From positions 13,154 through 77,153 of the forward strand of contig CADCDA010000003.1 of NCBI GenBank assembly GCA_902800025.1: a DNA stretch of 64,000 nucleotides. Direction: 5' to 3'. The translations under genes and the position numbers were made by a program. The notes below the pieces were generated by a model that worked only from the letters and a program-made list of their open reading frames with translations, was not told the origin of the DNA and ran no database searches. Of the stretch, positions 6,463 through 25,051 are shown piece by piece (position 1 is the first letter of the stretch; each line of letters begins with the position of its first letter). The stretch comes from an uncultured Erysipelotrichaceae bacterium (GTDB taxonomy: Bacteria; Bacillota_I; Bacilli_A; RFN20; CAG-826).

Positions 6463-6780
6463 AGCTTGTCCTGCCTTTTCGGGAGGTTGTCCCGGATTTT
6501 TTGTGGTTTTGAGTGTTTTTCATAACAAGTTAATACAAAGTATTACTTCTTTTGGGCGGGACAAGTGGACAGGACAACCCGGATTTTTCCTATAGATTTA
6601 TAAAACATATGATTAGTTTTTTTCTTAACAATGCTTTCACATTATTAGCTAAATCTTGTCCAGGTTGTCCACTTGTCCTTAAGAACCACTTTTACTCTGT
6701 AACTTGTATACTCTTTGGCGGCCATAACCTGGGACAACTTTTCTTTCGCTTGTCCTTGTCCACCCTTCAATGCTCTTCAT
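6463..6780. repeat. iteron/inverted-repeat cluster (GGACAAG/GGACAAC motif), candidate replication origin
   Basis: At least 8 copies of GGACAA[GC] / [GC]TTGTCC lie in both orientations. A 16-21 bp inverted repeat, GGACAAGTGGACA(GGACA)ACC at 6558-6578 and GGTTGTCCACTTGTCC at 6663-6678, flanks an AT-rich 84-bp spacer. CCCGGATTTTT is repeated at 6493 and 6578. The cluster lies in the intergene between the primase and VRR-NUC genes and extends into the primase 3' end. Confidence 0.45.
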
Positions 6781-8772: not shown

Positions 8773-8819
8773 CCTCCTTTTCTTTATTAATTGTTTTATA
8801 AACTAGGTTCATATTGTGG

Positions 8820-10844: not shown

Positions 10845-11346
10845 CTAAGTGGTCACCATCTGCAAGCTTGAGAACGTTATTGAGTCCAACAGCGATTCCC
10901 TTTGCACCATTTTTGTTATAGGCATAGAAGCTGATTGAGACTTTTCCGTACATTCCTGAGTAGATTTCGCTAGGATCAAGAATTGGGTTTAAAGCGGCAT
11001 CGACAATACCGACAGCACTAATGGAAGACGCATTTAAGAAATAGCTATCTTTATAGGCTGGATCGTCTGCTTTTTCAACATCTCCATCTCTTAATGGGAT
11101 ATGGATTGCTGAGAGAGCTGGTACTGTTTTGCCTGTGCCACGAAGCTTTGCTTCGCCTTCGTTATAGGCGGCTTCAATGGCTTTGTTGATCTTCTCTAAA
11201 GTGACAGTATCACTCTTAGGGATGATGATTGATGTTGAGTATTTTTCTTGACCACCCTCAACGGTAGCCTTCGCTTCTAAAATATTGCAATAAGAGAAAC
11301 GAACTTTTCCGGTAATAACCTTTGTTGGATTTACGACTTTTGTCAT
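10783..11346 (-). CDS. DUF2815-family phage protein (putative ssDNA-binding)
   Basis: N-terminal MTKVVNPTKVITGKVRFSYCNILEAKA resembles DUF2815. The PolA-DUF2815-DUF2800 arrangement is conserved in phage replication modules. Confidence 0.6.
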   Translation of the reverse strand: MTKVVNPTKVITGKVRFSYCNILEAKATVEGGQEKYSTSIIIPKSDTVTLEKINKAIEAAYNEGEAKLRGTGKTVPALSAIHIPLRDGDVEKADDPAYKDSYFLNASSISAVGIVDAALNPILDPSEIYSGMYGKVSISFYAYNKNGAKGIAVGLNNVLKLADGDHLGGKVSAEKDFATDDTEDFLD

Positions 11347-11348
11347 AA

Positions 11349-12326
11349 TTAATTTTCTCCTTCTAAATTGTTTAGTTCTTCCGCAAAGTCAGCTGCGGCA
11401 CTGTTGATTTCCTCTCTTTTATCACTGCGAGGAACGAGTGTTGGTTTGCCTTCTGGTTTAATTACATAGGGAGCCACTATCTCATTGAACTTAACTTTTC
11501 CTAATACTTTCTGGATATCGGTTAAGCTGAGAAGGGTTCTCTTGTAAGGATCAATTCCTTCGGCTTGAAGTGAAGCAACCACTGCTTCTTCATCTTTGAT
11601 GACTCTGTTAGATTTACCAGCAACGAGCTTATGGTTTTTCCAGATCTTACCCTTGATTGCTTCATTAAGGGCATAGTCTTTGATTTGATTAGCCCAGCTA
11701 ACGAGGGAGTCGATTCTGTCTAATACATCTTCAACTTCTTCATCAGTTAATAAAGGCGGTTCTTTTTGCTCATACTTTTCAAGTTCAAGAAGAGAATTCG
11801 ACTTAGCCCTACATGTGCTACGAATTCTACAAAAACGACAATTTTCACCTGGGTGGAATTCTCCCTTTCCTTCATAAGCATCAGCAGCGGCTGGTCTTAC
11901 CACTTCTTCGGCCCATTTGAGCAACTCCTCTTTAGAGATTTCACTAGTTTGGACGTTACCCATTCTTGGTTGGAAGATGCTCATCTTTACTGTCTTAAAG
12001 TCATAAAGGCAGTCAAACATTGATATTGCTCCTAAAGCGTACAATTTGGTTTGCGGATTCCCCTCACATTCCACTAAAACGTTCTTTCCGTATTTGAGAT
12101 CAATTACGTGGATCGTGTCTTTAGATAGAATTAGGGCATCTGCGGTACCAAAACTCTCAGGAACGAATTCTGATATGTCTACCTCCTGTTCGATGAATAG
12201 AACTGCATTTTTGTCATGTTTCTCGGCTTCATTAAGCTTTTCTAAGACAAATGCGACGTAGTCATCGGTATAACCATCCATTTCAGCATTGAAGTATTCG
12301 CTTTTTCTAGGATTAAGGTCTTCCAT
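11349..12326 (-). CDS. DUF2800-family PD-(D/E)xK (Cas4-like) nuclease
   Basis: C-terminal Cys cluster CRFCRIRSTC. A D...E.K-like core sits in the N-terminal half. Position matches its conserved partners. Confidence 0.6.
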   Translation of the reverse strand: MEDLNPRKSEYFNAEMDGYTDDYVAFVLEKLNEAEKHDKNAVLFIEQEVDISEFVPESFGTADALILSKDTIHVIDLKYGKNVLVECEGNPQTKLYALGAISMFDCLYDFKTVKMSIFQPRMGNVQTSEISKEELLKWAEEVVRPAAADAYEGKGEFHPGENCRFCRIRSTCRAKSNSLLELEKYEQKEPPLLTDEEVEDVLDRIDSLVSWANQIKDYALNEAIKGKIWKNHKLVAGKSNRVIKDEEAVVASLQAEGIDPYKRTLLSLTDIQKVLGKVKFNEIVAPYVIKPEGKPTLVPRSDKREEINSAAADFAEELNNLEGEN

Positions 12327-14477: not shown

Positions 14478-16244
14478 CTAATCTTGATAATTTTTCACGA
14501 AACCATAACGTCCGTTGTTAGGATCTTTCGTGAATTCTATTCTATTAACTCCTTCGTAATCTATGTCAGGAATATCGTTTTCGATTGCGATGATTTGCAT
14601 GTCCCTAGCGCACTCCTTCAAATAGGTGAATAAGGCTTTCTTTATTTGATCCGGAAGCTCTTCATTTCTCTTTTCTCTTAGTGACAAGATAGGAGAATCG
14701 ACTAGAAGCAATCCAGGCTTATAGTATCCTCTTTCTATCAAAACCTGCTGAAGAGCCAGTGCAAGTATCGTGTTGTAAAAACCCTTGAAGCCTTCGCCTT
14801 CATATTTCTTTTCGCTGCCGTTGATTTTAATATCAAAGTCACCATAGACGAAATCGATTTCATTTTCCCTGCCATTACATCTATCAATGCCGGCTTTCGC
14901 CTTAGTCACAAGGAAGCCAGAAAGAAGTGATTCAATGTATTCTCTAGGATTGTATTTCGTAATTTCGACCTTTATCTTCTCGACCTTCTTATGCTCTTCG
15001 ATTGCATCATTAAGGTTTTGGACGGCATTATTGTACTCAGCTTCGGAAACAACCGCGGTCTGATAGCTGTTAATCTTACTTTGAAGCTGCTTGACTAACG
15101 GCTTTAACTCATGATTGATCTCGGCATCAATAGCTTTCTTTTTGCCGACCAATTCGGAAACTTTCTCTTTTAGAGAAGCAAGCTCATCTTCGATAGCTTT
15201 TTTCGCTTCTTTCAAATCCTTTATTTGAGGTACAAGCTTCTTGAGCTCTGCTTCTGCAGCTTCTTCGCACGTCTCCTCTTCTTCTTTCTCAAGCTTGCCA
15301 TTGCAGAATGGACATCTTTGAGGCTCTTCGACATCCGAGGAATGAGCCTTTCCATCGACAATAAGCTCCATCCTTCTTAAATCCGATTCGTATTGGCTAA
15401 GGAGCGTGTTGTATTTTTCTATGAAGTTGTTAAGTTCAGCGATTCTATCGTTCAGGCCGATGATTTGGTTGGAGAGGCCTTTGCTCTCTTCGATCTTCTT
15501 GTTAAGCTCTTCATTCACTTCGTTGAGCCTTCTGATAAGCTCATCGATATCCTTTTTGAATTGCTCAGGCTCGCCAATCTTGAACCCTTCGTATGATTTC
15601 AACTTCTCAGTAAGCTTATCAACTTGCTCTTTCAGGTATTTTTCGAGCGCTTTCTTTCTGGCGGCTTTTTCAATAGGATTGCCTTCAGGATCTATGTGAT
15701 TGTCCCTGGACAAAAGGTAGATTAATGCCGATTTGAACGAAGTCGCGCTTGTGTTCTGCTCTGGGGCGAGGATACTTTCTTCTTTGCTTACATCGTTTTC
15801 TTTAATTACAAAAGTATGGGAGAACGTTCTGAAAGTTAGATTGTTCTTTTCCCAATTCTCGTTCTTAAGGATCTCCACTCTCTCGGTAAAGCCGATAAGC
15901 CTTAGCAATACATCGCTGTAGCTCATCCCATTTTCGTCTTTTTGCTTATATTCTCTGCATTCCAAACCTTGGATGTTCGTTTCTACAACCACAAGAGTCT
16001 TCTTGCCTATGGACCTAAGCAAAACAGCATATCCATCGTCGCATTCCACTCTCGCTTTGATCTCTTTTGCGTTGAAGTGCGGATTGACTTCTTTCTTTGC
16101 GCCGAAGATGAAATCGATGCAATCCAAAATGACGGACTTACCAGTATTAGATGGGCCATAAACAACGTTAAATCCATCGTCAAAGCTCACAGCAGACACT
16201 TCATCATTGTTCTGAATAAGCTGTATTTCTTTAATTCTTAACAT
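14478..16244 (-). CDS. SMC/Rad50-like ABC ATPase with central coiled coil and CxxC hook (LmuB / ABC-3C-ATPase-like)
   Basis: N-terminal MLRIKEIQLIQN...VVYGPSNTGKSVILDCIDFIFG is a Walker A. A long K/E/L-rich heptad region holds the CPFCNGK hook. The C-terminal part carries degenerate signature and Walker B sequences: EGEGFKGFYNTIL ... GLLLVDSPILSL ... IIAIEND. Confidence 0.7.
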   Translation of the reverse strand: MLRIKEIQLIQNNDEVSAVSFDDGFNVVYGPSNTGKSVILDCIDFIFGAKKEVNPHFNAKEIKARVECDDGYAVLLRSIGKKTLVVVETNIQGLECREYKQKDENGMSYSDVLLRLIGFTERVEILKNENWEKNNLTFRTFSHTFVIKENDVSKEESILAPEQNTSATSFKSALIYLLSRDNHIDPEGNPIEKAARKKALEKYLKEQVDKLTEKLKSYEGFKIGEPEQFKKDIDELIRRLNEVNEELNKKIEESKGLSNQIIGLNDRIAELNNFIEKYNTLLSQYESDLRRMELIVDGKAHSSDVEEPQRCPFCNGKLEKEEEETCEEAAEAELKKLVPQIKDLKEAKKAIEDELASLKEKVSELVGKKKAIDAEINHELKPLVKQLQSKINSYQTAVVSEAEYNNAVQNLNDAIEEHKKVEKIKVEITKYNPREYIESLLSGFLVTKAKAGIDRCNGRENEIDFVYGDFDIKINGSEKKYEGEGFKGFYNTILALALQQVLIERGYYKPGLLLVDSPILSLREKRNEELPDQIKKALFTYLKECARDMQIIAIENDIPDIDYEGVNRIEFTKDPNNGRYGFVKNYQD

Positions 16245-16686
16245 TGGTAAATCCTCCTCTTTTCACTAAGTCGGCCATGAATTTTCGAACGCTTTCATCT
16301 TTTTGAAGATCGTACTTCTCAAACGCTCCTTCTGCTGTCGACATATAATTTTCGCCGTACACATTGTCGAGCGAATCTATAAAGTTAATGCCATTATCAT
16401 TGATTTGGTACTTGAAACCATTATCTTGCGTCACATCGACAAGTCCTCTAGTAACCAATTCCTTAATCGCCATATCCACAAGTTCTTTTCTTGAGGCAAT
16501 TTCTCCAAACTTATAAGCACTATCGCCATGGAGATTGGACTCAGAAACCCCATAGTCCTTCCCATAACAGCAGATAAAGTCATAGCAGACAAATTGGTAT
16601 TTATCCATCTTGTCGAAAGGGCAATTGATGAGAAGCATCAATATCCTCAGTTGCATTTCAAATGGCGTGTTGAAAAATCTATTCAT
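16231..16686 (-). CDS. small hypothetical protein (candidate middle component / LmuC-like)
   Basis: The ATG at 16686 overlaps the upstream TAG (ATGAATAG), which indicates coupling. The 151-aa protein overlaps the ATPase start by 14 nt. No known motif. Confidence 0.5.
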   Translation of the reverse strand: MNRFFNTPFEMQLRILMLLINCPFDKMDKYQFVCYDFICCYGKDYGVSESNLHGDSAYKFGEIASRKELVDMAIKELVTRGLVDVTQDNGFKYQINDNGINFIDSLDNVYGENYMSTAEGAFEKYDLQKDESVRKFMADLVKRGGFTNVKN

Positions 16687-17695
16687 CCAGTTTCTCCTCC
16701 ACCCATTTGATTTTTTCATCATTAACTAGCATGTGGGTGATTCCTTTTCTCTCTTGGGTTTTGATCCATCCAGGGAGATGCATGAGAACGCTATTAAGAG
16801 GAATAAACGTCACCCTTTCCATTATTGCGTTCATTTTTTCTTTTCCAGAAGCATAGCTTTTGTTGCATGTGTCTTCTAGACCAGTGAAAATTTCGCTCTT
16901 TAGCTCATCGAAAAAATGATAGCCATAGGTTTCAGTGTCCCTAAGGCCAACTCTTATTGATTCGGCAGCGTAATAGTAGCCGCGTTGTTTGTTAAAATCA
17001 TCGAGACACGCGGTATCTGAAACAAGGTCGCTCTTCTTCACGAAGATAACATGTGCGGCCTCAGAGTAAACCTTTAGAAGCTCTTTGACGTAGTTTAATT
17101 CTTCGTCTTTAATATCATCTGGTGTCACGATGGCGACTGGGTGCTCCCTGCTATTGAGAATATCAATGATATCGTTCGTAGTGAGATTGTTATCGCCTAG
17201 TGATCTGTTTGCTTTTTTAGCCACAGGATTTGTTTTGTTGTCTGCGACAATCGCAAGCATGAAAACCTCTCTGAAGAAAAGCTTGTCTTCATTCCCTTTG
17301 TTGGCATTATAAAGCCCATTGACATAGCGCCTCTTTGCTATATCGATTTCTTCATCTGATTGCACCAATTCGTTTAATTCTTTGAAAATATATCGATTTT
17401 GCAGACTATTTGTCACGATTCTGTTCAAAAGCAACATTGAAATGCTTCCGTCTTTGTCGTGGCCGTTGAAGTATCTAGTCATTCCTGCCCTCAACAATGG
17501 ATAAACATCTTCGTTACCCTTATAAAGCGATCCGCACATTTTCGGAGTAAGACGGTATTGCTTATGTGATCTATCCCTGATATCCGCCTTTTTGATAGGA
17601 TCCTCCAATAAACCTTTCACCAAAAAAGTCATTTGCTTCTTTTTAGCAAATTTAGTGATTACCTTTAAAAATGATGAGAAGGTTAAGACGGCCAT
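16679..17695 (-). CDS. hypothetical 338-aa protein (candidate effector of the ATPase triad; no recognisable catalytic motif)
   Basis: The ATG at 17695 is 1 nt after the upstream TAA. No nuclease, SIR2, TIR, HEPN or Cap4 motif could be recognised by eye. Confidence 0.5.
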   Translation of the reverse strand: MAVLTFSSFLKVITKFAKKKQMTFLVKGLLEDPIKKADIRDRSHKQYRLTPKMCGSLYKGNEDVYPLLRAGMTRYFNGHDKDGSISMLLLNRIVTNSLQNRYIFKELNELVQSDEEIDIAKRRYVNGLYNANKGNEDKLFFREVFMLAIVADNKTNPVAKKANRSLGDNNLTTNDIIDILNSREHPVAIVTPDDIKDEELNYVKELLKVYSEAAHVIFVKKSDLVSDTACLDDFNKQRGYYYAAESIRVGLRDTETYGYHFFDELKSEIFTGLEDTCNKSYASGKEKMNAIMERVTFIPLNSVLMHLPGWIKTQERKGITHMLVNDEKIKWVEEKLDE

Positions 17696-17696
17696 A

Positions 17697-18392
17697 TTAT
17701 TCTTCGTTATCCTCTTTTTCCTTCTTGCGATAGACGTTTATTGGATTTCCGTCTTTATCTCTCCAGCAATTCCAGCCGTTGTCATTGTGACCTGAGATCA
17801 TTGCCGCGGCTTGGGAAACGGACGAGCACACAACATCTTCTTGTAAGATTGATCCTTTGAGCGGTAAGGACATCCTAAAAGGGACCCACGAGAATATTGA
17901 TGGAGTTTTTTCAGATAAAGGAGCACAAGTAGAATCTTTTTTAAGTGTTAGAACACCATTAGCAACGGCTAAAACACCAGAATAAGTATTTCTATCTGCC
18001 TTTGATTTAACTTGATAATAATACTCTCCATCAGGAAGCGATGAACTTTCTACCGCTTCTGTGGCTTGCTCAAACACCTCTTTCTTATCTTCTTCTGGAT
18101 ACACCACTCTTCCGTCGAGAGAAGAAAGGAGCTGACGAACCATATTGACGTCCAAAGAGAACATTTCGGTATCGCCTACTCTACTCTTGGAGAAAATTTC
18201 ATGAAGCAGAACTTCTTTTTCATCGTAGTTGTCAAGTTCTATTGCGAAGTTTCTTTTTAATCCGCTGACATTTCTATAACCATTACTTTCAAGGAATCTC
18301 ATTCTTTCCTCGAAATTGTCTGTTTTGGTTTTTCCTATTTTGACTAAGCCGCTAACAACGGTTGTCATCAAATAAATAATTCCTTTCGCCAT
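17697..18392 (-). CDS. T5orf172 (GIY-YIG superfamily) domain protein with C-terminal DUF4357-like region
   Basis: N-terminal GIIYLMTTVVSGLVKIGKTKTDNFEERMRFL matches the T5orf172 pattern (YxL..........KIGxT....R). A conserved E..LH (EVLLHEIF) follows. Confidence 0.55.
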   Translation of the reverse strand: MAKGIIYLMTTVVSGLVKIGKTKTDNFEERMRFLESNGYRNVSGLKRNFAIELDNYDEKEVLLHEIFSKSRVGDTEMFSLDVNMVRQLLSSLDGRVVYPEEDKKEVFEQATEAVESSSLPDGEYYYQVKSKADRNTYSGVLAVANGVLTLKKDSTCAPLSEKTPSIFSWVPFRMSLPLKGSILQEDVVCSSVSQAAAMISGHNDNGWNCWRDKDGNPINVYRKKEKEDNEE

Positions 18393-18406: not shown

Positions 18407-21400
18407 TTATTTCAGCTTCCAATTAAAGAAGAAATCAGAAACAAACACATCTCTGTTGGCATACAAGATCTTGTTGATCTCTTTTTTGGAAACACCAAGA
18501 ATGTCTGCGATCTTTCCAGATTTCATTCCTTTGCCCGATTCTCTTAAAACTTTTACTATTTGATCTTTCAAAGAGAGAGGTTCTTCTTCAACTATCGCTT
18601 TTGGCTTAGCTACTACCTTTGGAGAGCTGAATTCAATAGCTTCATCTAGTAGCCTAGAGTCAAAACCAAATGCTTTGTATCCCTCAGAAACTCGTTCAAC
18701 ATATTCATCAGAAGGTCTTCCGAGTTTTCTATCCTCGTGCATAATGTAAACGAATGCTTCGATTTGGCTGAATGATCCATCATCAGCCTTAAGTTCAACT
18801 TTTATATCTTTTTTATAGTAGAAAGCAGGGTATCCTTCGTATCTATCTAGCGATGCTTCGTCATTTTCATTAACGACGAAAACACCAACAGGAACAGCAT
18901 ATCCGTTAGCCCTCTCGATTGTGAGGTAGTTTCCAGAGGAACTTCCCTTAAACATCAAGCGATAGTCATGGATAACTGATGTCCCTACTTTCCTTGCGGT
19001 TGGGCATCTGCTGGACATTTGTTCCAAATTGAGATTGCTGCCATAAGCCAAATAATAGCGAATTGGTTTCTGTGGTTTTTCTTCCACCACTAGTTCTGGT
19101 TCTTCTTCAGCAGGCTTTTCCACAGCATTTACAGGTTCCTCAACAGGTTTGCTTGAAACAAACGTTCTCGAAATTCTTGTTTGTTCTGGAGCTTCAGTAT
19201 GTGTTTCGCCTTCAATTCCAAATTCAAACCAATCAAAGCTGTTTCTATAGTTCTTTCTTACTTCTTCATTTGATAAATCTAAAGTAGATCCAATTGATTC
19301 GTTTTCAAAGAATTCTCTAATGAAGCCATTAAGGATATCTTCTTTGAAGATGTGATACTTGTTGAGAACCTCAAAGTCCTTCTTAGTGATACCGACAGCT
19401 TCTAAGAACCTATCCGGATCTGCATTCTTAAAGATTTCATCAAATGTCGTTTCTCTATAAACAGAAATATATAGGAATTCAAATAAACGAGCCAAGATGT
19501 GCTGCATGACGTTATCTGCATCTTGGATAGAAGTGTCATCGGCGTTTTTGATTACAGGTACCAAGGCTTTCTTTACTGCTTTTCTAAATGAATCACAGTA
19601 CCAGCGCTTGTAGATCTTTCCCCTATATTCCTGAGGAATGTTGTTTATGTCATTAAGATAGGCAACAACAAAGTTCTCTATCTTTTGCTTTGTTTCAGTT
19701 GTATATGTAATTTTTTCGCCGAAATGTTCTCTTACTTTGTCGACAAACTTAAGACCATCGGCTTTGCCGCATTGGAGCTTCTTAATAGGAGCGTTGACGC
19801 CTTGTTCATAGCCTTTCTTGAAGCCATTAATAAAGTATTTCTTATGGAGCTCATCTAAATCTGAAGGAATGTTTTCTTTGATGTGCTTTTCTTCGTTTGC
19901 ATCGTATTGTTCTTGGACTTCATTATCATCTAAATCAAGGTAAAGCTTACTATCAGCCATACCTAAGGCATAGCCTTTATCTCTTCCTTCTAAAGTAACC
20001 TTATCCTTAAAACTTGCATCATCTGGTTTAGGAGGGACGTCTCTATCCTTGGATTTTCCAAATTTTGCATGTGCAAAGACATGTTTAATAATGTCGCTAA
20101 CCTCCTCGTCATTGAGCATAGCGGCGATTGTATCTTCATCTTGGATCCAGGTCGTATTTTTGGTGTCCCTGATTTTCTTTGAAAGCGGCTTTCCTCTGCT
20201 ATCACCAAACTCAGCAAGCTTGAAGAATGTATCTTCGCCAATTGGGTGTTCCATGTCGCCATCCATGAAAATAGGTAAGTACTTAACGATCAGTCTAGCG
20301 ACTTGCATCTTCGTATATGCATTTTCCTTAGATGATTCTTCGGCATATTTTAAAAGAAGCGAAGCTGCTCTATCTATGTTGAAATCATATACATAACCAT
20401 CAGTTTTGAGGATCTTTCCGTTTTCAACCAATGGTGTCTGAATTCTAAATATCGCCTGGAAATATGATTCAGGGCTAGCTAAGTCCTTCAAAACGAAAAC
20501 ACTAAACCACTTCTTAACCGTGACACCTATAGTTAGCTTATTAACAGTGATTGAAATGCTGCCGATTTTACCGGTGTTTTCTCCAGCGGTCATGCTTTCA
20601 TTTAAAAATGTAAGGGCGTTTGTACCACTACCAACGTTCCTATCGGATAGATTGATGATCTGGTATCTAGAGAAATAATCATCTTCTTGAAGCAACTTTG
20701 CCATCGCATAGCATGAGTTGACAGTTGGCATGAGCCAAATCGTATGTTTGCTGTTAGGTGTAAGTTTTGGATTAGAATATGGGAAATTCTTTCCGTGCAT
20801 TGAAGCGCCTTTTATAATTTCAAGCCAAAGTTTAATCTCATCCTCATAAAGGAATTGGTATCCAAAGGCTTCGTCGTAATCTTTCCTCGTCTCAAAGAAT
20901 TTGTTCAAGGAAAAATAACTTCTTCCCAATACCTTATCATCCGAAACCACCGAATTGGCTAGCCCAGGGAACAAAGACTTCATGTCATAACCGAAGATGC
21001 TCATATCTGGGAATTGGGCATAATCTTTATTCGGGGTCCAATCGTCGTTCTCACTATTAGGATATTTCCTCTTTTGCTCATCAAAGTATGAATATGTGCT
21101 TGATGTTTTATCTGTAAATTCGCCTCTTGCTAAAGCTCTGAAAGGAGTTCCTGAGAGACAGATTGTTTTCTTTGTTTTGATTTCGAATTTCTTAACGACA
21201 TCCTTCGTGTCTTTGAGGTTTTTCTGATAGTCCTTATCAAGGTCCTCGAAAGTATCCTGAGTTCTAGCATTCCAGGCTCCAAAATGGTATTCATCGAGAA
21301 CCACCAAATCCCAATCAACATCTTGAAGCTTTTTGATTTTGTCTTTTGTTGTTTGGCTTTGGCTGTCTTTGCCTAAGTAGTTCTGCAACGATAAAAACAC

Positions 21401-22186
21401 AACGAAAGGCTCAGTCTTACCTTTTAAGGTAAAATCATTCCTTCTGATGTTGTCGTCGGTATAGTACTTATATACCTTATTTATATGAAGCAAGTCATCC
21501 TGCCATGATTTCTCAACTGCTGGGATGAATGTCAAAATTAAAATCTTATTGATATTGTTGTCTTCTGCAAACTTATAGGTCGTATAGCATTTTCCGAACC
21601 TCATTTTGCAGTTGAGAAGGAATCTTCCTCCTACTGGATGTTTGTCAAAATATGCAACTAAATCATCTATCGCTTTTTGCTGCTCAGCTCTAGGAGTATA
21701 AACAACTCTGCTGCTTCCGCTTTTTCTGATCTCGTTGAAAATAGAAATCAATTCATCAGGATGGATGTTGACAAACCACTCCTGCTCTTTTTCTTGAATT
21801 CCTGCGTACTTAGCTTTGATCTCGGCATGAACGCGATAATCTTTGAAGGATTCGCTATTGGTGTCTAAGCAGATGCCCCAATAGATGACTTCTCTGATGT
21901 CACCATAGCCTTTAGCAAATTGATCATCGGTCAAAGCTAATTCATGTTGTTGATCCTTAATTCTAGATTTGATTGCATGCCAAAAGGTCTCTCCCATTTT
22001 GCACTTGGTCATGCCTACCTTGACTCCATGATAAACGAAGTTAGGAAGTTGGTACATATAAATCAAGATCAAGTCTTGATCGGTTGTGTTTTTGTCATCC
22101 AGTTGGAAAAGAACGTCCTTTCCACTGAATCTGACTGTATCCTCAGAATTTATATTCTGGCCACGTTGGATTACTACTTCGCTCAT
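18407..22186 (-). CDS. multidomain 1259-aa protein: N-terminal T5orf172/GIY-YIG-like + SF2 (ResIII-type, DEYH) helicase + gamma-glutamylcyclotransferase (GGCT/AIG2)-like domain + C-terminal HTH
   Basis: N-terminal LILIYMYQLPNFVYHGVKVGMTK matches a T5orf172 core. Helicase motif I-like LNCKMRFGKCYT, motif II VVLDEYHF, motif III ICLSGTP and motif VI-like FQAIFRIQT. The GGCT-like segment is IRYYLAYGSNLNLEQM...IEAFVY. The C-terminal HTH is GKIADILGVSKKEINKIL. Confidence 0.7.
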   Translation of the reverse strand: MSEVVIQRGQNINSEDTVRFSGKDVLFQLDDKNTTDQDLILIYMYQLPNFVYHGVKVGMTKCKMGETFWHAIKSRIKDQQHELALTDDQFAKGYGDIREVIYWGICLDTNSESFKDYRVHAEIKAKYAGIQEKEQEWFVNIHPDELISIFNEIRKSGSSRVVYTPRAEQQKAIDDLVAYFDKHPVGGRFLLNCKMRFGKCYTTYKFAEDNNINKILILTFIPAVEKSWQDDLLHINKVYKYYTDDNIRRNDFTLKGKTEPFVVFLSLQNYLGKDSQSQTTKDKIKKLQDVDWDLVVLDEYHFGAWNARTQDTFEDLDKDYQKNLKDTKDVVKKFEIKTKKTICLSGTPFRALARGEFTDKTSSTYSYFDEQKRKYPNSENDDWTPNKDYAQFPDMSIFGYDMKSLFPGLANSVVSDDKVLGRSYFSLNKFFETRKDYDEAFGYQFLYEDEIKLWLEIIKGASMHGKNFPYSNPKLTPNSKHTIWLMPTVNSCYAMAKLLQEDDYFSRYQIINLSDRNVGSGTNALTFLNESMTAGENTGKIGSISITVNKLTIGVTVKKWFSVFVLKDLASPESYFQAIFRIQTPLVENGKILKTDGYVYDFNIDRAASLLLKYAEESSKENAYTKMQVARLIVKYLPIFMDGDMEHPIGEDTFFKLAEFGDSRGKPLSKKIRDTKNTTWIQDEDTIAAMLNDEEVSDIIKHVFAHAKFGKSKDRDVPPKPDDASFKDKVTLEGRDKGYALGMADSKLYLDLDDNEVQEQYDANEEKHIKENIPSDLDELHKKYFINGFKKGYEQGVNAPIKKLQCGKADGLKFVDKVREHFGEKITYTTETKQKIENFVVAYLNDINNIPQEYRGKIYKRWYCDSFRKAVKKALVPVIKNADDTSIQDADNVMQHILARLFEFLYISVYRETTFDEIFKNADPDRFLEAVGITKKDFEVLNKYHIFKEDILNGFIREFFENESIGSTLDLSNEEVRKNYRNSFDWFEFGIEGETHTEAPEQTRISRTFVSSKPVEEPVNAVEKPAEEEPELVVEEKPQKPIRYYLAYGSNLNLEQMSSRCPTARKVGTSVIHDYRLMFKGSSSGNYLTIERANGYAVPVGVFVVNENDEASLDRYEGYPAFYYKKDIKVELKADDGSFSQIEAFVYIMHEDRKLGRPSDEYVERVSEGYKAFGFDSRLLDEAIEFSSPKVVAKPKAIVEEEPLSLKDQIVKVLRESGKGMKSGKIADILGVSKKEINKILYANRDVFVSDFFFNWKLK

Positions 22187-22187
22187 A

Positions 22188-23855
22188 TCAAATCATCTCT
22201 CTAATTAAGGATTCGATATCCTTTATCTCAGTTTCGTCAAGGCCATACATTTCATAGAGTTCCTTGTCGCTCCACGATTTTTCATAAGTCAAATTCGGGA
22301 CAAATTTAAAATTATCTTTTGTAATATGCATAGAACTTAAGGTCAATAAAACTAAATATCTAGCAAATTTTGTCTTAATATACGATGCATAATTATTTGC
22401 CTCTTGTTCCGTGTCAAAAGCACCAAGTAATAAATAAGTAGCTGTAAACGCTTCCCCTGGTTTGTAAATTTTTATTTTTGTTGTGACATTAGACATACCA
22501 TCGCTAGCGTTATTAACACCTCCTCTATCAGGGTTTAACTGACCGATAGAAACTTTATATTTATCGATAATATCTGCTCCTTTTGGGAGGGAATCTTTTT
22601 TAATATAGAATTCGCCAGCACTAGCAATAACCTTTATTGAATTATCAAAAGGTTTTTCTTCACCTCTTGTATTGGTTGGAAGCCCAAATGGGGATATCGG
22701 ATAAACTAGCCTGTCAAGGAATACTTTTGTTTTAGCCCTTATTTTGTCAATAATTCCAATTCCGATATTGCTTCGTATAAATACATCGAAATCATTGAGT
22801 AGTCGATTCTTTGATGTTGTTTTTCCACCGACGCTACTGACGACTTGACATTTTCCTTGATGTTCAGAATCCCACAAGAAATAGCAAACGCCTCCAGCTA
22901 TATCAACGTTTGGAAAGCAGTCTCTGCTCTTTGGAAAATCAACCAATAAAGCCATTCTCTTATCATTCAGCATCTTCTCTCTGAATAAATCCATTCCCAT
23001 TCCGCCAGTAAACCATCTCGAAGGAATAATCATTGAAATATACTTCGGAGATAACGAGATAGCTTGTTCAACAAATTTGTGATAGATAGGCGTTGCCTGA
23101 ATTCCTGAGTCGTTTGTACTCAATTGATATGGTGGGTTGCCTATTATAATGTCGAATTTCATATTCTTATCTCCTTTAAAAAACCTATTTCTTAAATGTC
23201 TTTCTATAACCAAATGGTTAACATGCATAAATTCATAAGCATATTGTTCTCTTTGGTTCGCATCTAAATATTTTGAATCGTGTGCCACGCCACAATACTT
23301 GCATTTCTTTGTTTTCGGATCTATTTCATGGCTTGTATTTGGAGTTTTAATGTTCCCCTCGGTATCTGAAAACCATGTTCCGTTTCCTATGGCATATCCA
23401 TTAACAAAGTGACCGTCTGGAGCTTTTATTCCGTCACATGCTCTATTCGCTTCTGAACAATAATAAACGGTTCTTCTGGCTACATTAGCAGTGAACTTAG
23501 TTAGTCCAATAGAAAAGACCATATTTTGTAAAATGTGTTTTCTTCTTGTTTCTTTATCAGGAATAACATCTTTTAATCCTTCGTCAAGCCTAATAGCAAT
23601 TTCACGTTCAAAAATACCATTTTTTGTTGCAGGATTTAGCCACTTATAATTTGGATTATGCCAAACTTCATCAGGCAAAGAGTCAAGCATCATATCAGCA
23701 GTTTTTCTAGGTGTGAAAACTTCGTCATTGCCGACGTTTGTAATAGTTTCAAGAATGTCGAAGTGCTCTATATAATCGCTAGCTTCTTCTACAGCTGTAT
23801 TGTATTTCTTCTCAGCGCTTAGGCCTTCGCTGGTCTTTTTATCTTCATCTACCAT
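22188..23855 (-). CDS. gamma-class N6-adenine DNA methyltransferase (Eco57I/TaqI-like, NPPY) with Cys4 insertion
   Basis: Motif X DEVFTPRKTADMMLD, motif I-like WLNPATKNGIF and motif IV FDIIIGNPPYQ. It carries a CSEANRACDG...CKYCGVAHD zinc-ribbon-like insert and a long C-terminal putative target-recognition region. Confidence 0.8.
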   Translation of the reverse strand: MVDEDKKTSEGLSAEKKYNTAVEEASDYIEHFDILETITNVGNDEVFTPRKTADMMLDSLPDEVWHNPNYKWLNPATKNGIFEREIAIRLDEGLKDVIPDKETRRKHILQNMVFSIGLTKFTANVARRTVYYCSEANRACDGIKAPDGHFVNGYAIGNGTWFSDTEGNIKTPNTSHEIDPKTKKCKYCGVAHDSKYLDANQREQYAYEFMHVNHLVIERHLRNRFFKGDKNMKFDIIIGNPPYQLSTNDSGIQATPIYHKFVEQAISLSPKYISMIIPSRWFTGGMGMDLFREKMLNDKRMALLVDFPKSRDCFPNVDIAGGVCYFLWDSEHQGKCQVVSSVGGKTTSKNRLLNDFDVFIRSNIGIGIIDKIRAKTKVFLDRLVYPISPFGLPTNTRGEEKPFDNSIKVIASAGEFYIKKDSLPKGADIIDKYKVSIGQLNPDRGGVNNASDGMSNVTTKIKIYKPGEAFTATYLLLGAFDTEQEANNYASYIKTKFARYLVLLTLSSMHITKDNFKFVPNLTYEKSWSDKELYEMYGLDETEIKDIESLIREMI

Positions 23856-24490
23856 AGATCCACTCCTTCCTCGTGAACATTTATTTCATTTTCACTTATT
23901 TCCCATACCGGCATATCAAGCGGCTTCAAATTCCCTTTTTCTGCCTCAGGCATCTTATAGGCCACGTCTATTCCTAAAAGCAATCCTTCATCACTTTGAG
24001 TGTTTGACATTGCCCACATGAAGTTTCTCACAATAATGCATCTAAGAATATCGAAGTAGGAAGTATCGACTTGAATTTTGTTTTCAACAATAAAGTGCTT
24101 CACTAAAGTGAATATATTATTTCTTTGCTTTTCAATTAATTCTTCATCCATTTCTATAGAGTAGATAGTAGATAAAGCTCTGAGTGATTCAATTTCAAAA
24201 TTCTTAGTTATCTTCTCAAGACGCTTTTGGAGAATGTATGTAGTAAACGCACCATCACCAGAGGTTGGTTCGAGGACGGTTTTTGAAGAATCAAAAATAT
24301 CAGGACCTATGGCTTGACACATATCTTTGACAATGAAATCGGGAGTAAAAATTTGATAACCCTCAGTATCATTATGGCCCATAGAGGCAAGTTGAATAGT
24401 TTCAAAAGCTTCAATTAAGTCAAAAGCTTTAATCTGTTCTTTTTTAAATTCAGCCTTTATTTGATTAACATAATTTGAAAAATCAATCAT
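23849..24490 (-). CDS. truncated methyltransferase paralog (SAM-binding motifs X, I, II only; no NPPY)
   Basis: YQIFTPDFIVKDMCQAI plus VLEPTSGDGAF plus IYSIEMDEEL match the N-terminus of TaqI-like methyltransferases. Neither NPPY nor DPPY is present. It is translationally coupled on both sides. Confidence 0.5.
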   Translation of the reverse strand: MIDFSNYVNQIKAEFKKEQIKAFDLIEAFETIQLASMGHNDTEGYQIFTPDFIVKDMCQAIGPDIFDSSKTVLEPTSGDGAFTTYILQKRLEKITKNFEIESLRALSTIYSIEMDEELIEKQRNNIFTLVKHFIVENKIQVDTSYFDILRCIIVRNFMWAMSNTQSDEGLLLGIDVAYKMPEAEKGNLKPLDMPVWEISENEINVHEEGVDLW

Positions 24491-24678
24491 TCTTCCACCT
24501 CTATTCCATATTCTTTAAATAAAGGAGCGAGTTTCCTTTTAACTTTCATCGTTGGTTCACAATGACCATTCTCCCAGCGATTGATGCTTATAAAAGCAAC
24601 ACCCACTTTCTGGGCAAGTTCAGTCTGCGTTAAAAGCATTCTTTTCCTTAATAATTTTATTGCTTGAGCGTAATTCAT
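24487..24678 (-). CDS. Xre-family HTH regulator (controller/C-protein-like)
   Basis: A 63-aa protein: LTQTELAQKVGVAFISINRWENG is a classic Xre HTH. RBS GAGGTG lies 7 nt upstream. It is the first gene of the operon and overlaps the next gene by 4 nt. Confidence 0.8.
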   Translation of the reverse strand: MNYAQAIKLLRKRMLLTQTELAQKVGVAFISINRWENGHCEPTMKVKRKLAPLFKEYGIEVEE

Positions 24679-24750: not shown

Positions 24751-24797
24751 AAACTACAGATACTCCTGGAAAACAACCTAAATGCCCAATTCGCAAT

Positions 24798-24836
24798 CGT
24801 ATGTGATATAGGTAAAGCGTATGTGCGATAGGTAAG
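24798..24836. repeat. tandem direct repeat CGTATGTGATATAGGTAAAG / CGTATGTGCGATAGGTAAG
   Basis: Two adjacent ~20-bp units with 17/19 identity lie about 80 bp upstream of the operon promoter. They may be regulator-binding sites. Confidence 0.4.
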
Positions 24837-24974
24837 AAATCACCCGGCAAATGACCTCCAAAAATAAGGCAAATCAAATGAAAAGCGGTTAATAAATAAG
24901 AAAAAATGCCCATTTCTGAGCATTTTTGCGGTTTTTCGCATATTTCACTTTGTATCAAAGTATGTATACGATTA

Positions 24975-25051
<77 letters not shown>

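What the first reader, a model, noticed from the sequence alone, without database searches (positions are those of the whole stretch)
23849..24490. Catalytically incomplete methyltransferase paralog inserted between controller HTH and the active methyltransferase
The 213-aa product carries the TaqI-like motifs X (FTPDFIVKDM), I (VLEPTSGDGAF) and II (IYSIEMDEEL), but neither NPPY nor DPPY. It is translationally coupled on both sides, so it is probably expressed.

It could be a SAM-binding regulatory or specificity subunit, a decoy, or a decayed duplicate.
Basis: seen in the sequence. Interest (0 to 1): 0.5.

Follow-up and report, generated by a model that had tools for sequence, protein, structure and literature searches.

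The report
Detached SAM-binding half of a methyltransferase
The 213-aa gene is a conserved stand-alone copy of only the cofactor-binding half of an adenine DNA methyltransferase, always encoded just ahead of a methyltransferase-plus-helicase restriction system, and it most likely supplies that half in trans as a naturally split enzyme.

Summary
ORF213 (23849-24490, minus strand) has intact motifs X, I and II and a motif-III-like strand. It has no (N/D/S)PP(Y/F/W/H) motif, and it overlaps both neighbouring genes (ATGA; ATGGTAG).

It is not a decayed duplicate or a frameshift artefact. More than 300 homologs keep a length of about 211-229 aa. Its nearest relative shows 40 synonymous against 14 non-synonymous codon differences. 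In 86 of 86 informative loci, the 555-aa methyltransferase family is directly preceded by such an "N-half-only" gene, of the 213-aa type or a distant ~330-aa type.

Relatives show what it is:
- P0215 fuses the N-half directly to the NPPY half.
- P0204 (1470 aa) fuses helicase, pseudo-N-half, ORF213-like N-half and NPPY half in one chain.
- Several viral loci pair an N-half gene with a gene that starts at "MKFD..GNPPYQ" and has no SAM-binding motifs at all, so these are truly split methyltransferases.

The 555-aa protein's own N-terminal module lacks the canonical motif-II acidic residue. That module occurs only where the helicase is present.

An unexpected extra is a strongly conserved internal Shine-Dalgarno plus ATG at Met232 of the 555-aa gene. 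It predicts a C-half-only isoform.

Best reading: ORF213 is the trans-acting SAM-binding subunit (confidence about 0.6). All of this is inferred from sequence comparison; nothing was tested biochemically.

The parts
23849..24490 (-). ORF213: a stand-alone SAM-binding half ('N-half') of a gamma-class (TaqI/Eco57I-like) N6-adenine DNA methyltransferase. It has motifs X, I and II, a motif-III-like strand and a beta-hairpin, but no motifs IV-VIII and no target-recognition domain.
24320..24355 (-). Motif X, QIFTPDFIVKDM. F48, T49 and P50 are invariant in the family.
24245..24277 (-). Motif I, VLEPTSGDGAF. LEPTSGDGAFT is invariant. This is strand beta-1 plus the glycine loop.
24146..24166 (-). Motif II, IYSIEMD. 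This is strand beta-2 and it carries the invariant acidic residue E113.
24002..24025 (-). Motif-III-like strand, NFMWAMSN. N156, W159, M161 and N163 are invariant. It aligns with 'NIICADFL' of the single-chain relative P0215 and with 'SWNIWQMDG' of the ~330-aa partner type.
23867..23914 (-). C-terminal beta-hairpin, MPVWEISENEINVHEE. The equivalent hairpin lies between motif III and NPPY in the single-chain relatives P0215 and P0204.
22188..23855 (-). MT555: an Eco57I-family methyltransferase made of four parts:
- a pseudo-N-half module
- a Cys-rich insert
- the NPPY catalytic half
- a variable target-recognition region
23463..23816 (-). MT555 N-module (residues 14-131).
- It keeps FTP and 'LNPATKNGIF'.
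- It has an invariant Gly117 where the motif-II acidic residue should be.
- It is homologous to a module fused to the helicase C-terminus in L146, and to a module lying between the helicase and the true N-half in P0204.
23190..23462 (-). MT555 Cys-rich insert (residues 132-222). C133, C185 and C188 are invariant and C140 is nearly so. Model confidence is low here. It occupies the position that the ORF213-like domain holds in P0204.
23160..23180 (-). Internal Shine-Dalgarno plus in-frame ATG (TTTAAAGGAGATAAGAATATG) at Met232 of MT555. It predicts a 324-aa isoform, 'MKFDIIIGNPPYQ...', consisting only of the C-half and recognition region.
18407..22186 (-). HEL1259: the putative restriction subunit. 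From N- to C-terminus it has:
- a weak T5orf172-like N-terminus
- an SF2 helicase
- a long linker
- a GGACT/AIG2-like domain
- a small winged-helix domain

Its start lies 1 nt after the MT555 stop.
24487..24678 (-). A 63-aa HTH_3 protein, a possible controller. It is an optional member of the cassette.
24795..24834 (.). Two tandem 20-nt direct repeats upstream of the HTH gene, a candidate operator.

Best explanation
ORF213 is the detached SAM-binding subdomain (motifs X, I, II, III and a hairpin) of a gamma-class N6-adenine DNA methyltransferase.

**Proposed mechanism.**
- It is made from the same transcript as MT555, by translational coupling.
- It binds S-adenosyl-methionine.
- It docks onto the catalytic half (NPPY, motifs IV-VIII) and recognition region encoded in MT555, completing the Rossmann fold in trans. 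The result is a two-polypeptide modification enzyme.
- The N-terminal module of MT555 is a degenerate duplicate of such an N-half. It most likely acts as the adaptor to the helicase-nuclease HEL1259 rather than as the SAM site.
- A conserved internal Shine-Dalgarno plus ATG at Met232 of MT555 probably also yields a C-half-only isoform. That isoform would be the natural docking partner of ORF213.

**Shown here:**
- the motif content
- the fold class
- the obligate synteny
- the fused and fully split relatives
- the conserved internal start signal

**Inferred, not shown:**
- physical pairing of ORF213 with the catalytic half
- SAM binding
- use of the internal start
- the adaptor role of the N-module
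For: 1. **A conserved, real gene.** More than 300 homologs are about 211-229 aa long (one truncated entry of 186 aa), and none has a Pfam domain. Motifs X, I and II are invariant. Comparison with a 92%-identical homolog shows 40 synonymous against 14 non-synonymous codon differences.
3. **Obligate pairing.**
   - All 22 genome loci keep the order ORF213 then MT555; HEL1259 follows in 19, with two contigs ending first and L022 fragmentary.
   - Of 87 loci holding the 5' end of an MT555 gene, 47 have a 213-type gene directly upstream and overlapping. Another 39 have a distant ~330-aa N-half-like gene there, and 1 has too little upstream DNA to judge.
4. **A whole superfamily lacks the catalytic motif.** Of the 150 best 50%-identity representatives, 148 have no [NDS]PP[YFWH], yet almost all keep LEPxxGxGxF.
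5. **Fusion proteins.**
   - P0215 joins an ORF213-like N-half directly to an MT555-like NPPY half.
   - P0204 has the order helicase, N-module, ORF213-like N-half, NPPY half. Its pairwise E-values to the window proteins are 6e-56, 1e-8, 8e-12 and 2e-24.
6. **True splits.**
   - In L107, L119, L157, L159-161 and L167, an N-half gene is followed within 0-20 nt by a gene that has its own ribosome-binding site. That gene starts at 'M(x)KFDxxIGNPPYQ' and has no SAM-binding motifs.
   - In L146 the N-module is fused to the helicase, and the C-half is a separate, coupled gene.
   - A 348-position PADLOC 'MTase_II' model covers only the NPPY-to-C-terminus part of MT555.
7. **Complementary degeneracy.** ORF213 keeps E113 in motif II. 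MT555 has an invariant G117 at that position, N74 in place of D/E in motif I, and no motif III.
8. **The N-module tracks the helicase.** Viral loci whose MT555-type gene carries the N-module have the helicase wherever the locus extends far enough. The split pairs in L107, L119 and L167 have neither N-module nor helicase.
9. **Internal start.** 79 of 95 unique MT555-type genes have GGAGG or AGGAG 4-18 nt before the conserved internal Met, against 1.6-2.0% at control positions. The signal persists where the encoded amino acids differ.
Against: - **ORF213 models as self-contained.** It folds as a compact domain (pTM 0.85), not as an obviously open half-sheet.
- **An exception to the pairing.** The closest homolog, P0001 (92% identity), sits with the HTH gene but is followed by a GmrSD gene and no methyltransferase.
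- **Orphan N-halves in viral contigs.** About 30 viral loci carry very short N-half-only proteins with no adjacent C-half gene detected. Some family members may therefore act independently.
- **No direct data.** There is no interaction, SAM-binding, methylation or translation-start evidence, and no multimer structure prediction could be run.
Confidence: 0.6

Rival explanations
1. ORF213 is an accessory or regulatory SAM-binding subunit. MT555 is a self-sufficient methyltransferase that uses its own N-module. ORF213 binds SAM and attaches to the complex as a cofactor sensor or allosteric licence for methylation or restriction, much as SAM controls Type I, III and ISP enzymes.
For: - The MT555 model has a complete Rossmann fold built from its own residues.
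- ORF213 models as a compact domain.
- ORF213 persists with the HTH gene next to a GmrSD gene in L171.
- N-half-only proteins with no detected partner gene nearby exist in viral contigs.
Against: - It does not explain the relatives whose partner gene lacks every SAM-binding motif.
- It does not explain why the intact N-half sits directly before NPPY in the single-chain forms.
- It does not explain the invariant loss of the motif-II acidic residue in MT555.
Confidence: 0.25
2. ORF213 has an independent function unrelated to completing MT555. It could be a SAM-sequestering protein or decoy, or a dominant-negative partner that binds the catalytic halves of other methyltransferases. It might act together with the HTH protein.
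For: - L171 and L172 keep HTH plus ORF213 without MT555 or the helicase, and ORF213 there overlaps the GmrSD start.
- About 30 viral loci carry short N-half-only genes with unrelated neighbours.
Against: - 86 of 86 informative MT555 loci have an N-half gene directly upstream and overlapping.
- The HTH gene is present in only about 9 of 22 loci.
- Homology between L171 and the window stops exactly at the ORF213 stop codon. This looks like a recent cassette swap that left ORF213 behind.
Confidence: 0.1
3. ORF213 is a decayed duplicate or pseudogene, or an artefact of a frameshift or sequencing error that split a longer methyltransferase gene.
For: - It lacks motif IV and everything after it.
- It overlaps the next gene in a different reading frame.
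Against: - Length and motifs are conserved across more than 300 homologs of 41-92% identity.
- The same overlapping two-gene layout occurs in 47 loci.
- It is under purifying selection, with 40 synonymous against 14 non-synonymous differences.
- It has its own Shine-Dalgarno sequence.
- A fusion would give a domain order seen in none of the natural single-chain relatives found here.
Confidence: 0.02

Closest known systems
Naturally two-polypeptide DNA methyltransferases M.AquI and M.EcoHK31I (cited in PMC3404938)
   Same: The conserved motifs of one methyltransferase fold are divided between two adjacent gene products, and both are needed to build one active site.
   Different: - Those are cytosine-5 enzymes, split late in the fold: motifs I-VIII against IX-X, or motif IX alone.
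- Here the enzyme is a gamma-class N6-adenine type, split between motif III and motif IV, so that the SAM-binding and catalytic subdomains are separated.
- The larger partner here also carries a degenerate extra copy of the N-half.
- No biochemistry exists for this family.
[quoted passage not shown]
   Same: - They combine nuclease, SF2 helicase, coupler, gamma-class adenine methyltransferase and recognition domain.
- LlaBIII is the best structural match for ORF213.
- A single-chain relative of this cassette exists (P0204).
   Different: - In the window the system is three genes, not one chain.
- The N-terminal nuclease candidate is T5orf172-like rather than Mrr, and the match is weak.
- The SAM-binding half is a separate polypeptide.
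- The candidate 'coupler' is a pseudo-N-half.
Single-chain TaqI/Eco57I/Alw26I-family gamma methyltransferases (Pfam PF07669, NCBIfam TIGR02987; e.g. P0215)
   Same: ORF213 is homologous to their first ~100-190 residues, and MT555 residues 231-555 to the rest.
   Different: ORF213 stops before motif IV. It does not reach any family's score threshold.
Heteromeric methyltransferases with one degenerate subunit (METTL3-METTL14, PMC5023411; MTA1c, PMC9174199)
   Same: SAM binding, catalysis and substrate binding are shared out between two related polypeptides.
   Different: In those complexes both subunits have a full methyltransferase fold, and one has lost SAM binding. Here one partner is only half a fold with a pristine SAM site, and the other has the catalytic motif with a degenerate SAM half.

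Membership tests
Complete gamma-class N6-adenine DNA methyltransferase (TaqI/Eco57I-like) | Motif X (FxTP) and motif I ((D/E)PxxGxGxF) | tested here: met
   QIFTP and LEPTSGDGAF are present and invariant in the family.
Complete gamma-class N6-adenine DNA methyltransferase (TaqI/Eco57I-like) | Motif II acidic residue after strand beta-2 | tested here: met
   IYSIEMD has an invariant E113, and strand beta-2 is modelled at residues 109-113.
Complete gamma-class N6-adenine DNA methyltransferase (TaqI/Eco57I-like) | Motif IV catalytic tetrapeptide (N/D/S)PP(Y/F/W/H) | tested here: not met
   A pattern search of ORF213 finds none. It is also absent from 148 of 150 superfamily representatives.
Complete gamma-class N6-adenine DNA methyltransferase (TaqI/Eco57I-like) | Motifs V-VIII and a target-recognition domain after motif IV | tested here: not met
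   The protein ends at residue 213, after the hairpin that precedes strand beta-4 in P0215 and P0204.
Complete gamma-class N6-adenine DNA methyltransferase (TaqI/Eco57I-like) | Match to a curated family HMM above its threshold | tested here: not met
   Pfam gives no hit. NCBIfam TIGR02987 scores 23.4 bits against a cut-off of 353.5, matching model positions 7-99 only.
Natural split (two-polypeptide) DNA methyltransferase | Two adjacent, co-oriented, coupled genes whose products carry complementary motif sets | tested here: inconclusive
   - Adjacency and coupling are met.
- Motif sets are fully complementary in the relatives L107, L119, L157, L159-161, L167 and L146.
- In the window, MT555 also has a degenerate N-half-like module, which models as part of a complete fold.
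- A conserved internal start would produce a strictly complementary isoform.
Natural split (two-polypeptide) DNA methyltransferase | Both polypeptides are required for methylation | not testable with these tools
   This needs expression and methylation assays.
Type ISP restriction-modification enzyme | A single polypeptide holding nuclease, SF2 helicase, coupler, methyltransferase and recognition domain | tested here: not met
   The window has three genes. A single-chain relative, P0204, exists. A PADLOC 'REase_MTase_IIG' model matches HEL1259 at model positions 169-593 and MT555 at positions 1001-1359.
Type ISP restriction-modification enzyme | Mrr-family N-terminal nuclease | tested here: not met
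   No Mrr hit was found. There is a weak T5orf172 match (E 0.054) in HEL1259 and a stronger one (E 3e-8) in P0204.
C-protein-controlled restriction-modification operon | A small HTH controller gene with an operator upstream, conserved with the system | tested here: inconclusive
   - HTH_3 matches at E 2.9e-9.
- The PADLOC 'Control_protein' model matches only at E 0.0077.
- Tandem 20-nt repeats lie upstream.
- An HTH gene precedes ORF213 in only about 9 of 22 loci.
Catalytically inactive partner of a heterodimeric methyltransferase (METTL14/MTA9-like) | A full methyltransferase fold with a degenerate SAM site | tested here: not met
   ORF213 is the reverse case: intact SAM-binding motifs on a truncated fold.

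The most novel reading that the evidence does not exclude
The MT555 gene encodes two proteins from two conserved start sites, and the cell uses a 'real versus dummy' SAM-binding half to separate modification from restriction.

- **Short isoform.** This is Met232-555, the catalytic half plus recognition region. It pairs with ORF213 to form the active, SAM-binding methyltransferase.
- **Full-length isoform.** Its built-in pseudo-N-half cannot hold SAM in the canonical way. It occupies the same docking surface and instead couples the recognition module to the T5orf172-helicase for restriction.
- **A mobile half-enzyme.** On this view the N-half-only superfamily is a mobile, exchangeable half-enzyme. 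It includes the ~330-aa type and the orphan viral versions, and some phage copies could act as partners or poisons of host C-halves.
Probability: 0.2. Interest if true: 0.8.

Novelty: new variant of a known kind. Interest (0 to 1): 0.6.

Why it matters
**Why it would matter if true.**
- It would define a large natural family of amino-methyltransferases split at the junction between the SAM-binding and catalytic subdomains. The profile search found over 1000 cluster representatives. The natural two-polypeptide DNA methyltransferases cited in the paper I read (M.AquI, M.EcoHK31I; PMC3404938) are cytosine-5 enzymes cut elsewhere in the fold.
- It would show how a Type ISP-like restriction-modification enzyme can be broken into exchangeable modules.
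- It would explain thousands of 'hypothetical' 150-330-aa genes found next to Eco57I-family methylases.
- It would warn annotators that the adjacent 'methyltransferase' may not be active alone.
- It would offer natural scaffolds for split-enzyme targeted adenine methylation.
- The conserved internal start suggests a testable way of partitioning modification and restriction between isoforms.

**Literature.** I found no description of this arrangement in five full-text searches. REBASE could not be consulted.

Tried and rejected
**Tried without a useful result.**
- Sequence search of ORF213 against PDB chains gave only chance hits.
- A profile of MT555 against PDB matched only the region around NPPY.
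- The afdb50 fold library was unavailable.
- A protein search of the phage collection gave four weak partial hits in unannotated records.
- A viral-contig scan with the MT555 profile found only one locus. Scanning with a profile of distant N-half proteins was far more productive.
- Five literature searches found no paper on this arrangement.

**Considered and rejected.**
- NFMW as a variant motif IV. The model puts these residues in a strand that follows a helix, and they align with motif III of P0215 and of the ~330-aa type.
- A specificity subunit. ORF213 has no recognition domain and is highly conserved, while the MT555 C-terminus varies.
- Frameshift or pseudogene.

**Not attempted.**
- Residue co-variation between ORF213 and MT555, because there are too few paired sequences.
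Full report
**1.

On the minus strand the window carries a tightly packed operon:

| Gene | Coordinates | Size |
|---|---|---|
| HTH | 24678-24487 | 63 aa |
| ORF213 | 24490-23849 | 213 aa |
| MT555 | 23855-22188 | 555 aa |
| HEL1259 | 22186-18407 | 1259 aa |

- The HTH stop and the ORF213 start overlap as ATGA, behind GAGGTGGAAGA.
- The ORF213 stop and the MT555 start overlap as ATGGTAG, behind AAGGAG.
- HEL1259 starts 1 nt after the MT555 stop.
- ORF213 contains QIFTPDFIVKDM, VLEPTSGDGAF and IYSIEMD, and no [NDS]PP[YFWH].
- Pfam finds nothing in ORF213. It finds Eco57I (PF07669, E 6e-30) in MT555, HTH_3 in the small protein, and a GGACT domain near the end of HEL1259.
- NCBIfam, PADLOC and PHROGs give weak methyltransferase hits confined to ORF213 residues ~5-164. 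These match only the first ~100 positions of the full-length methyltransferase models.

**2. It is a real, conserved gene**

- The protein search returns 300 homologs at E ≤ 1e-3. The 120 listed are 59-92% identical and about 211-229 aa long apart from one truncated entry. None has a Pfam domain and almost none has a name.
- In an alignment of 27 homologs, these blocks are invariant or nearly so: NDxEGxQxFTP, LEPTSGDGAFT, YSxEMD, QRNN, NFxWxMxN, MP and PxW.
- Against the 92%-identical homolog in L171, ORF213 differs at 40 synonymous and 14 non-synonymous codons out of 205. This indicates purifying selection.
- The AlphaFold model is confident (pLDDT 84.6, pTM 0.85).
  - Strand beta-1 lies at residues 72-74 and beta-2 at 109-113.
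  - After two helices a strand follows at 157-164.
  - Three short strands follow that one.
- ORF213 is therefore the N-terminal, SAM-binding part of such a domain and nothing more.

**3. Synteny**

- A scan of one genome per species found 22 loci. They come from Erysipelotrichaceae, Bacilli, Clostridia, Ruminococcus, Gemmiger and Cloacimonadota assemblies.
  - In all of them ORF213 is followed by an MT555 homolog.
  - A HEL1259 homolog follows in 19; two contigs end within MT555 and L022 is fragmentary.
  - An HTH gene directly precedes ORF213 in only about nine.
- I then sampled from the other side, using MT555 as the query. Of 87 loci that include the 5' end of an MT555 homolog:
  - 47 have a 213-type gene immediately upstream, typically overlapping by 3-28 nt.
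  - 39 have a different 312-361-aa gene in the same position, overlapping by ~10 nt.
  - 1 has only 168 nt of upstream sequence.
- The ~330-aa type has AEVFTPxW, LExCCGEAPY, YGY[ED]xQGDN, SWNIWQMDG, a Cys cluster and a '..MDW' hairpin, and no NPPY.
- A profile comparison aligns it with ORF213 from motif X to motif III (E 0.0018).
- Every informative MT555-family gene is thus preceded by an N-half-only gene.

**4. A large superfamily of N-half-only proteins**

- A profile of ORF213, searched against 1.84 billion cluster representatives, gives 1018 hits at E ≤ 1e-3.
- Most of the best 150 are 140-280 aa long and match profile positions ~45-160.
- 148 of those 150 lack [NDS]PP[YFWH], yet nearly all have LEPxxGxGxF.

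**5. Fused and fully split relatives**

The only two NPPY-containing hits among those 150 are informative.

- **P0215 (516 aa).** It is an ordinary single-chain enzyme with this order:
  - ORF213-like N-half
  - hairpin
  - 'FDVVMGNPPYQ'
  - MT555-like C-terminus
- **P0204 (1470 aa).** It strings together homologs of all three window genes in this order:

| Segment of P0204 | P0204 residues | Matches in window | E-value |
|---|---|---|---|
| T5orf172 + helicase | 61-564 | HEL1259 107-644 | 6e-56 |
| N-module | 798-949 | MT555 18-140 | 1e-8 |
| Intact N-half | 981-1063 | ORF213 46-130 (35% identity) | 8e-12 |
| NPPY half + recognition region | 1130-1469 | MT555 236-554 | 2e-24 |

  The intact N-half sits directly before NPPY, where MT555 has a Cys-rich, low-confidence insert.

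- **Viral contigs.** I scanned these with a profile of 40 distant N-half proteins.
  - About 33 loci repeat the window's layout. An N-half gene precedes an MT555-type gene carrying the N-module. The helicase follows wherever the locus extends far enough.
  - Seven loci, five of them distinct, are different. These are L107, L119, L157, L159-161 and L167.
    - The N-half gene (138-247 aa) is followed after 0-20 nt by a 279-358-aa gene with its own ribosome-binding site.
    - That gene begins 'MQFDVVIGNPPYQ', 'MKFDIIIGNPPYQ' or 'MKFDVVVGNPPYL'.
    - It aligns only with MT555 positions 226/230-551.
    - These C-half proteins have no SAM-binding motifs, so the N-half protein must supply them.
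  - In L146 the order is an N-half gene, then a helicase with the N-module fused to its C-terminus. A C-half gene follows, and its GTG start overlaps the helicase stop.
- **PADLOC.** It contains a 348-position 'MTase_II' model that covers only NPPY to the C-terminus of MT555.
- **Association with the helicase.**
  - The N-module accompanies the helicase wherever it was found.
  - The split pairs in L107, L119 and L167 have neither.
  - L157 and L159-161 have C-half-only genes followed by an L146-type helicase. Its C-terminus is cut off by the end of the locus.

**6. MT555 itself**

- The family is very large, with at least 7979 hits.
- Residues 1-245 are almost invariant, while the C-terminal recognition region varies.
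- The N-module keeps FTP and 'LNPATKNGIF'. However, the position of the motif-II acidic residue is an invariant Gly117, the motif-I acid is Asn74, and no motif III is evident.
- The N-module and ORF213 share an extra 'FDxL....GND..FTP' signature (hhalign E 0.004). The module therefore looks like a degenerate duplicate of an N-half of this same lineage.
- Against a simple 'split' reading, the AlphaFold monomer model of MT555 (pLDDT 78, pTM 0.76) has a complete Rossmann fold.
  - It also matches small complete methyltransferases such as METTL5 (170 of 201 residues aligned).
  - With a shallow alignment and no partner present, this placement may be forced, but it cannot be dismissed.

**7. A conserved internal start**

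- Just before NPPY, MT555 reads ...FFKGDKN-MKFDIIIGNPPYQ. The DNA is TTTAAAGGAGATAAGAATATG, a good Shine-Dalgarno sequence 8 nt before an in-frame ATG at Met232.
- In 95 unique MT555-type genes, 79 have GGAGG or AGGAG, and 87 have some Shine-Dalgarno core, 4-18 nt before this Met.
- The control rates for the strict cores are 1.6% over 49,270 other codon positions and 2.0% over 988 other in-frame ATGs.
- The motif persists where the encoded residues differ. Examples are PAEE = GCGGAGGAA, TED = ACGGAGGAT, SEG = TCGGAGGGA and PED = CCGGAGGAT.
- Gly codons in this stretch are GGA in 81 of 115 cases, against 37.5% elsewhere.
- This points to selection on the nucleotides. It predicts a 324-aa isoform whose N-terminus is the same as that of the stand-alone C-half proteins.
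- Whether the site is used is untested.

**8. Mechanism proposed**

- ORF213 binds SAM and completes the catalytic half of MT555 in trans. The likely partner is the short isoform, and possibly also the full-length protein by displacing the N-module.
- The N-module links the methyltransferase and recognition unit to HEL1259.
- HEL1259 is the restriction motor. It has a weak T5orf172 match (E 0.054), and a PADLOC Type IIG model matches its helicase region.
- The motif content, fold class, synteny, fusions, splits and start signal are shown. Docking, SAM binding, isoform production and the adaptor role are inferred.

**9. Evidence that cuts the other way**

- MT555 models as a complete enzyme (see section 6).
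- The closest homolog of ORF213 is P0001 in L171 and L172, carried on eight contigs. It sits behind the same HTH gene but is followed, with a 16-nt overlap, by an 824-aa GmrSD gene.
  - Nucleotide homology to the window (~91%) runs from the tRNA gene to the ORF213 stop codon and ends there.
  - This looks like a cassette swap that left ORF213 behind. It also leaves room for an independent role.
- About 30 viral loci carry very short N-half-only proteins (121-205 aa). In those examined the protein ends right after motif III and the neighbouring genes are unrelated. The split-enzyme model does not explain them.

**10. Comparison and novelty**

- Natural two-polypeptide DNA methyltransferases are known, but M.AquI and M.EcoHK31I are C5 enzymes cut after motif VIII or around motif IX (PMC3404938).
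- Type ISP enzymes have the same overall module set in one chain (PMC4666363).
- METTL3-METTL14-type pairs have two complete folds (PMC5023411).
- I found no paper describing an N6-adenine methyltransferase split between motifs III and IV, with a pseudo-N-half and an internal start. REBASE was not available.
- I class this as a new variant of a known kind.

**11. Context**

- The cassette lies next to tRNA-Arg(TCT) at 24975-25051.
- It is at the edge of a phage- or ICE-like element with primase, PolA-like and nuclease genes at 6.7-12.3 kb.
- The host is probably a low-GC Firmicute, inferred from the best-matching loci.

Noticed in passing
window 23160-23180 (minus strand), inside the 555-aa gene: An in-frame Shine-Dalgarno plus ATG (AAAGGAG, 8 nt, then ATG at Met232) lies just before NPPY.
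- It is conserved at the nucleotide level in 79-87 of 95 unique homologs, against ~2% at control positions.
- It persists even where the encoded residues differ.
- It predicts a 324-aa C-half-only isoform.
   Followed up: yes
L023, L025, L029 and 36 further loci, immediately upstream of MT555 homologs: A second, distant class of N-half-only partner, 312-361 aa long.
- It has AEVFTPxW, LExCCGEAPY, YGY[ED]xQGDN, SWNIWQMDG and a Cys cluster.
- It has no Pfam or NCBIfam match.
- It replaces the 213-aa type in 39 of 86 loci.
   Followed up: partly
L171 8001-11110 and L172: A 92%-identical ORF213 homolog, with the same HTH gene, is followed by a GmrSD (Type IV restriction) gene instead of the methyltransferase and helicase. 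Homology to the window ends exactly at the ORF213 stop codon, which looks like a cassette swap.
   Followed up: partly
viral loci such as L124 3986-4441, L143 4001-4444, L134 1170-1613, L151 3893-4432: Very short phage-encoded N-half-only proteins (121-205 aa across ~30 loci). Those examined end right after motif III and have unrelated neighbouring genes, with no catalytic-half gene adjacent. Their function is unexplained.
   Followed up: partly
window 18461-19075 (minus strand), C-terminus of the 1259-aa gene: A GGACT/AIG2-like gamma-glutamyl cyclotransferase domain (Pfam E 3e-11, PHROG E 5e-47) and a small winged-helix domain are fused to the restriction helicase. Only two of the genome-locus homologs (L002, L007) keep this segment.
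   Followed up: no
window 17697-18392 (minus strand): A 231-aa protein with a weak MUG113/T5orf172-like N-terminus and a DUF4357/RAMA ('restriction enzyme adenine methylase associated') C-terminus lies directly downstream of the helicase gene.
   Followed up: no
window 14478-17695 (minus strand): Three consecutive genes of 338, 163 and 588 aa, partly overlapping. They lie between the restriction cassette and the replication module and may be another defence system. They were not examined.
   Followed up: no
window 6679-12326 (minus strand): A phage- or ICE-like replication module with four genes:
- a 697-aa primase/VirE-like gene
- a 674-aa PolA-like gene
- a 187-aa gene
- a 325-aa nuclease-like gene

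These identifications come from reading the sequences, not from a search. They suggest the restriction cassette sits on a mobile element beside tRNA-Arg.
   Followed up: no
window 24795-24834 and 24902-24927: Two tandem 20-nt direct repeats (AATCGTATGTGATATAGGTA / AAGCGTATGTGCGATAGGTA) lie upstream of the HTH gene and are a candidate operator. A terminator-like hairpin follows tRNA-Arg.
   Followed up: no
L146 3872-8429: In a high-GC viral contig the pseudo-N-half module is fused to the C-terminus of the helicase (1096 aa). The catalytic half starts at a GTG that overlaps the helicase stop. This is a third way of partitioning the same modules.
   Followed up: yes
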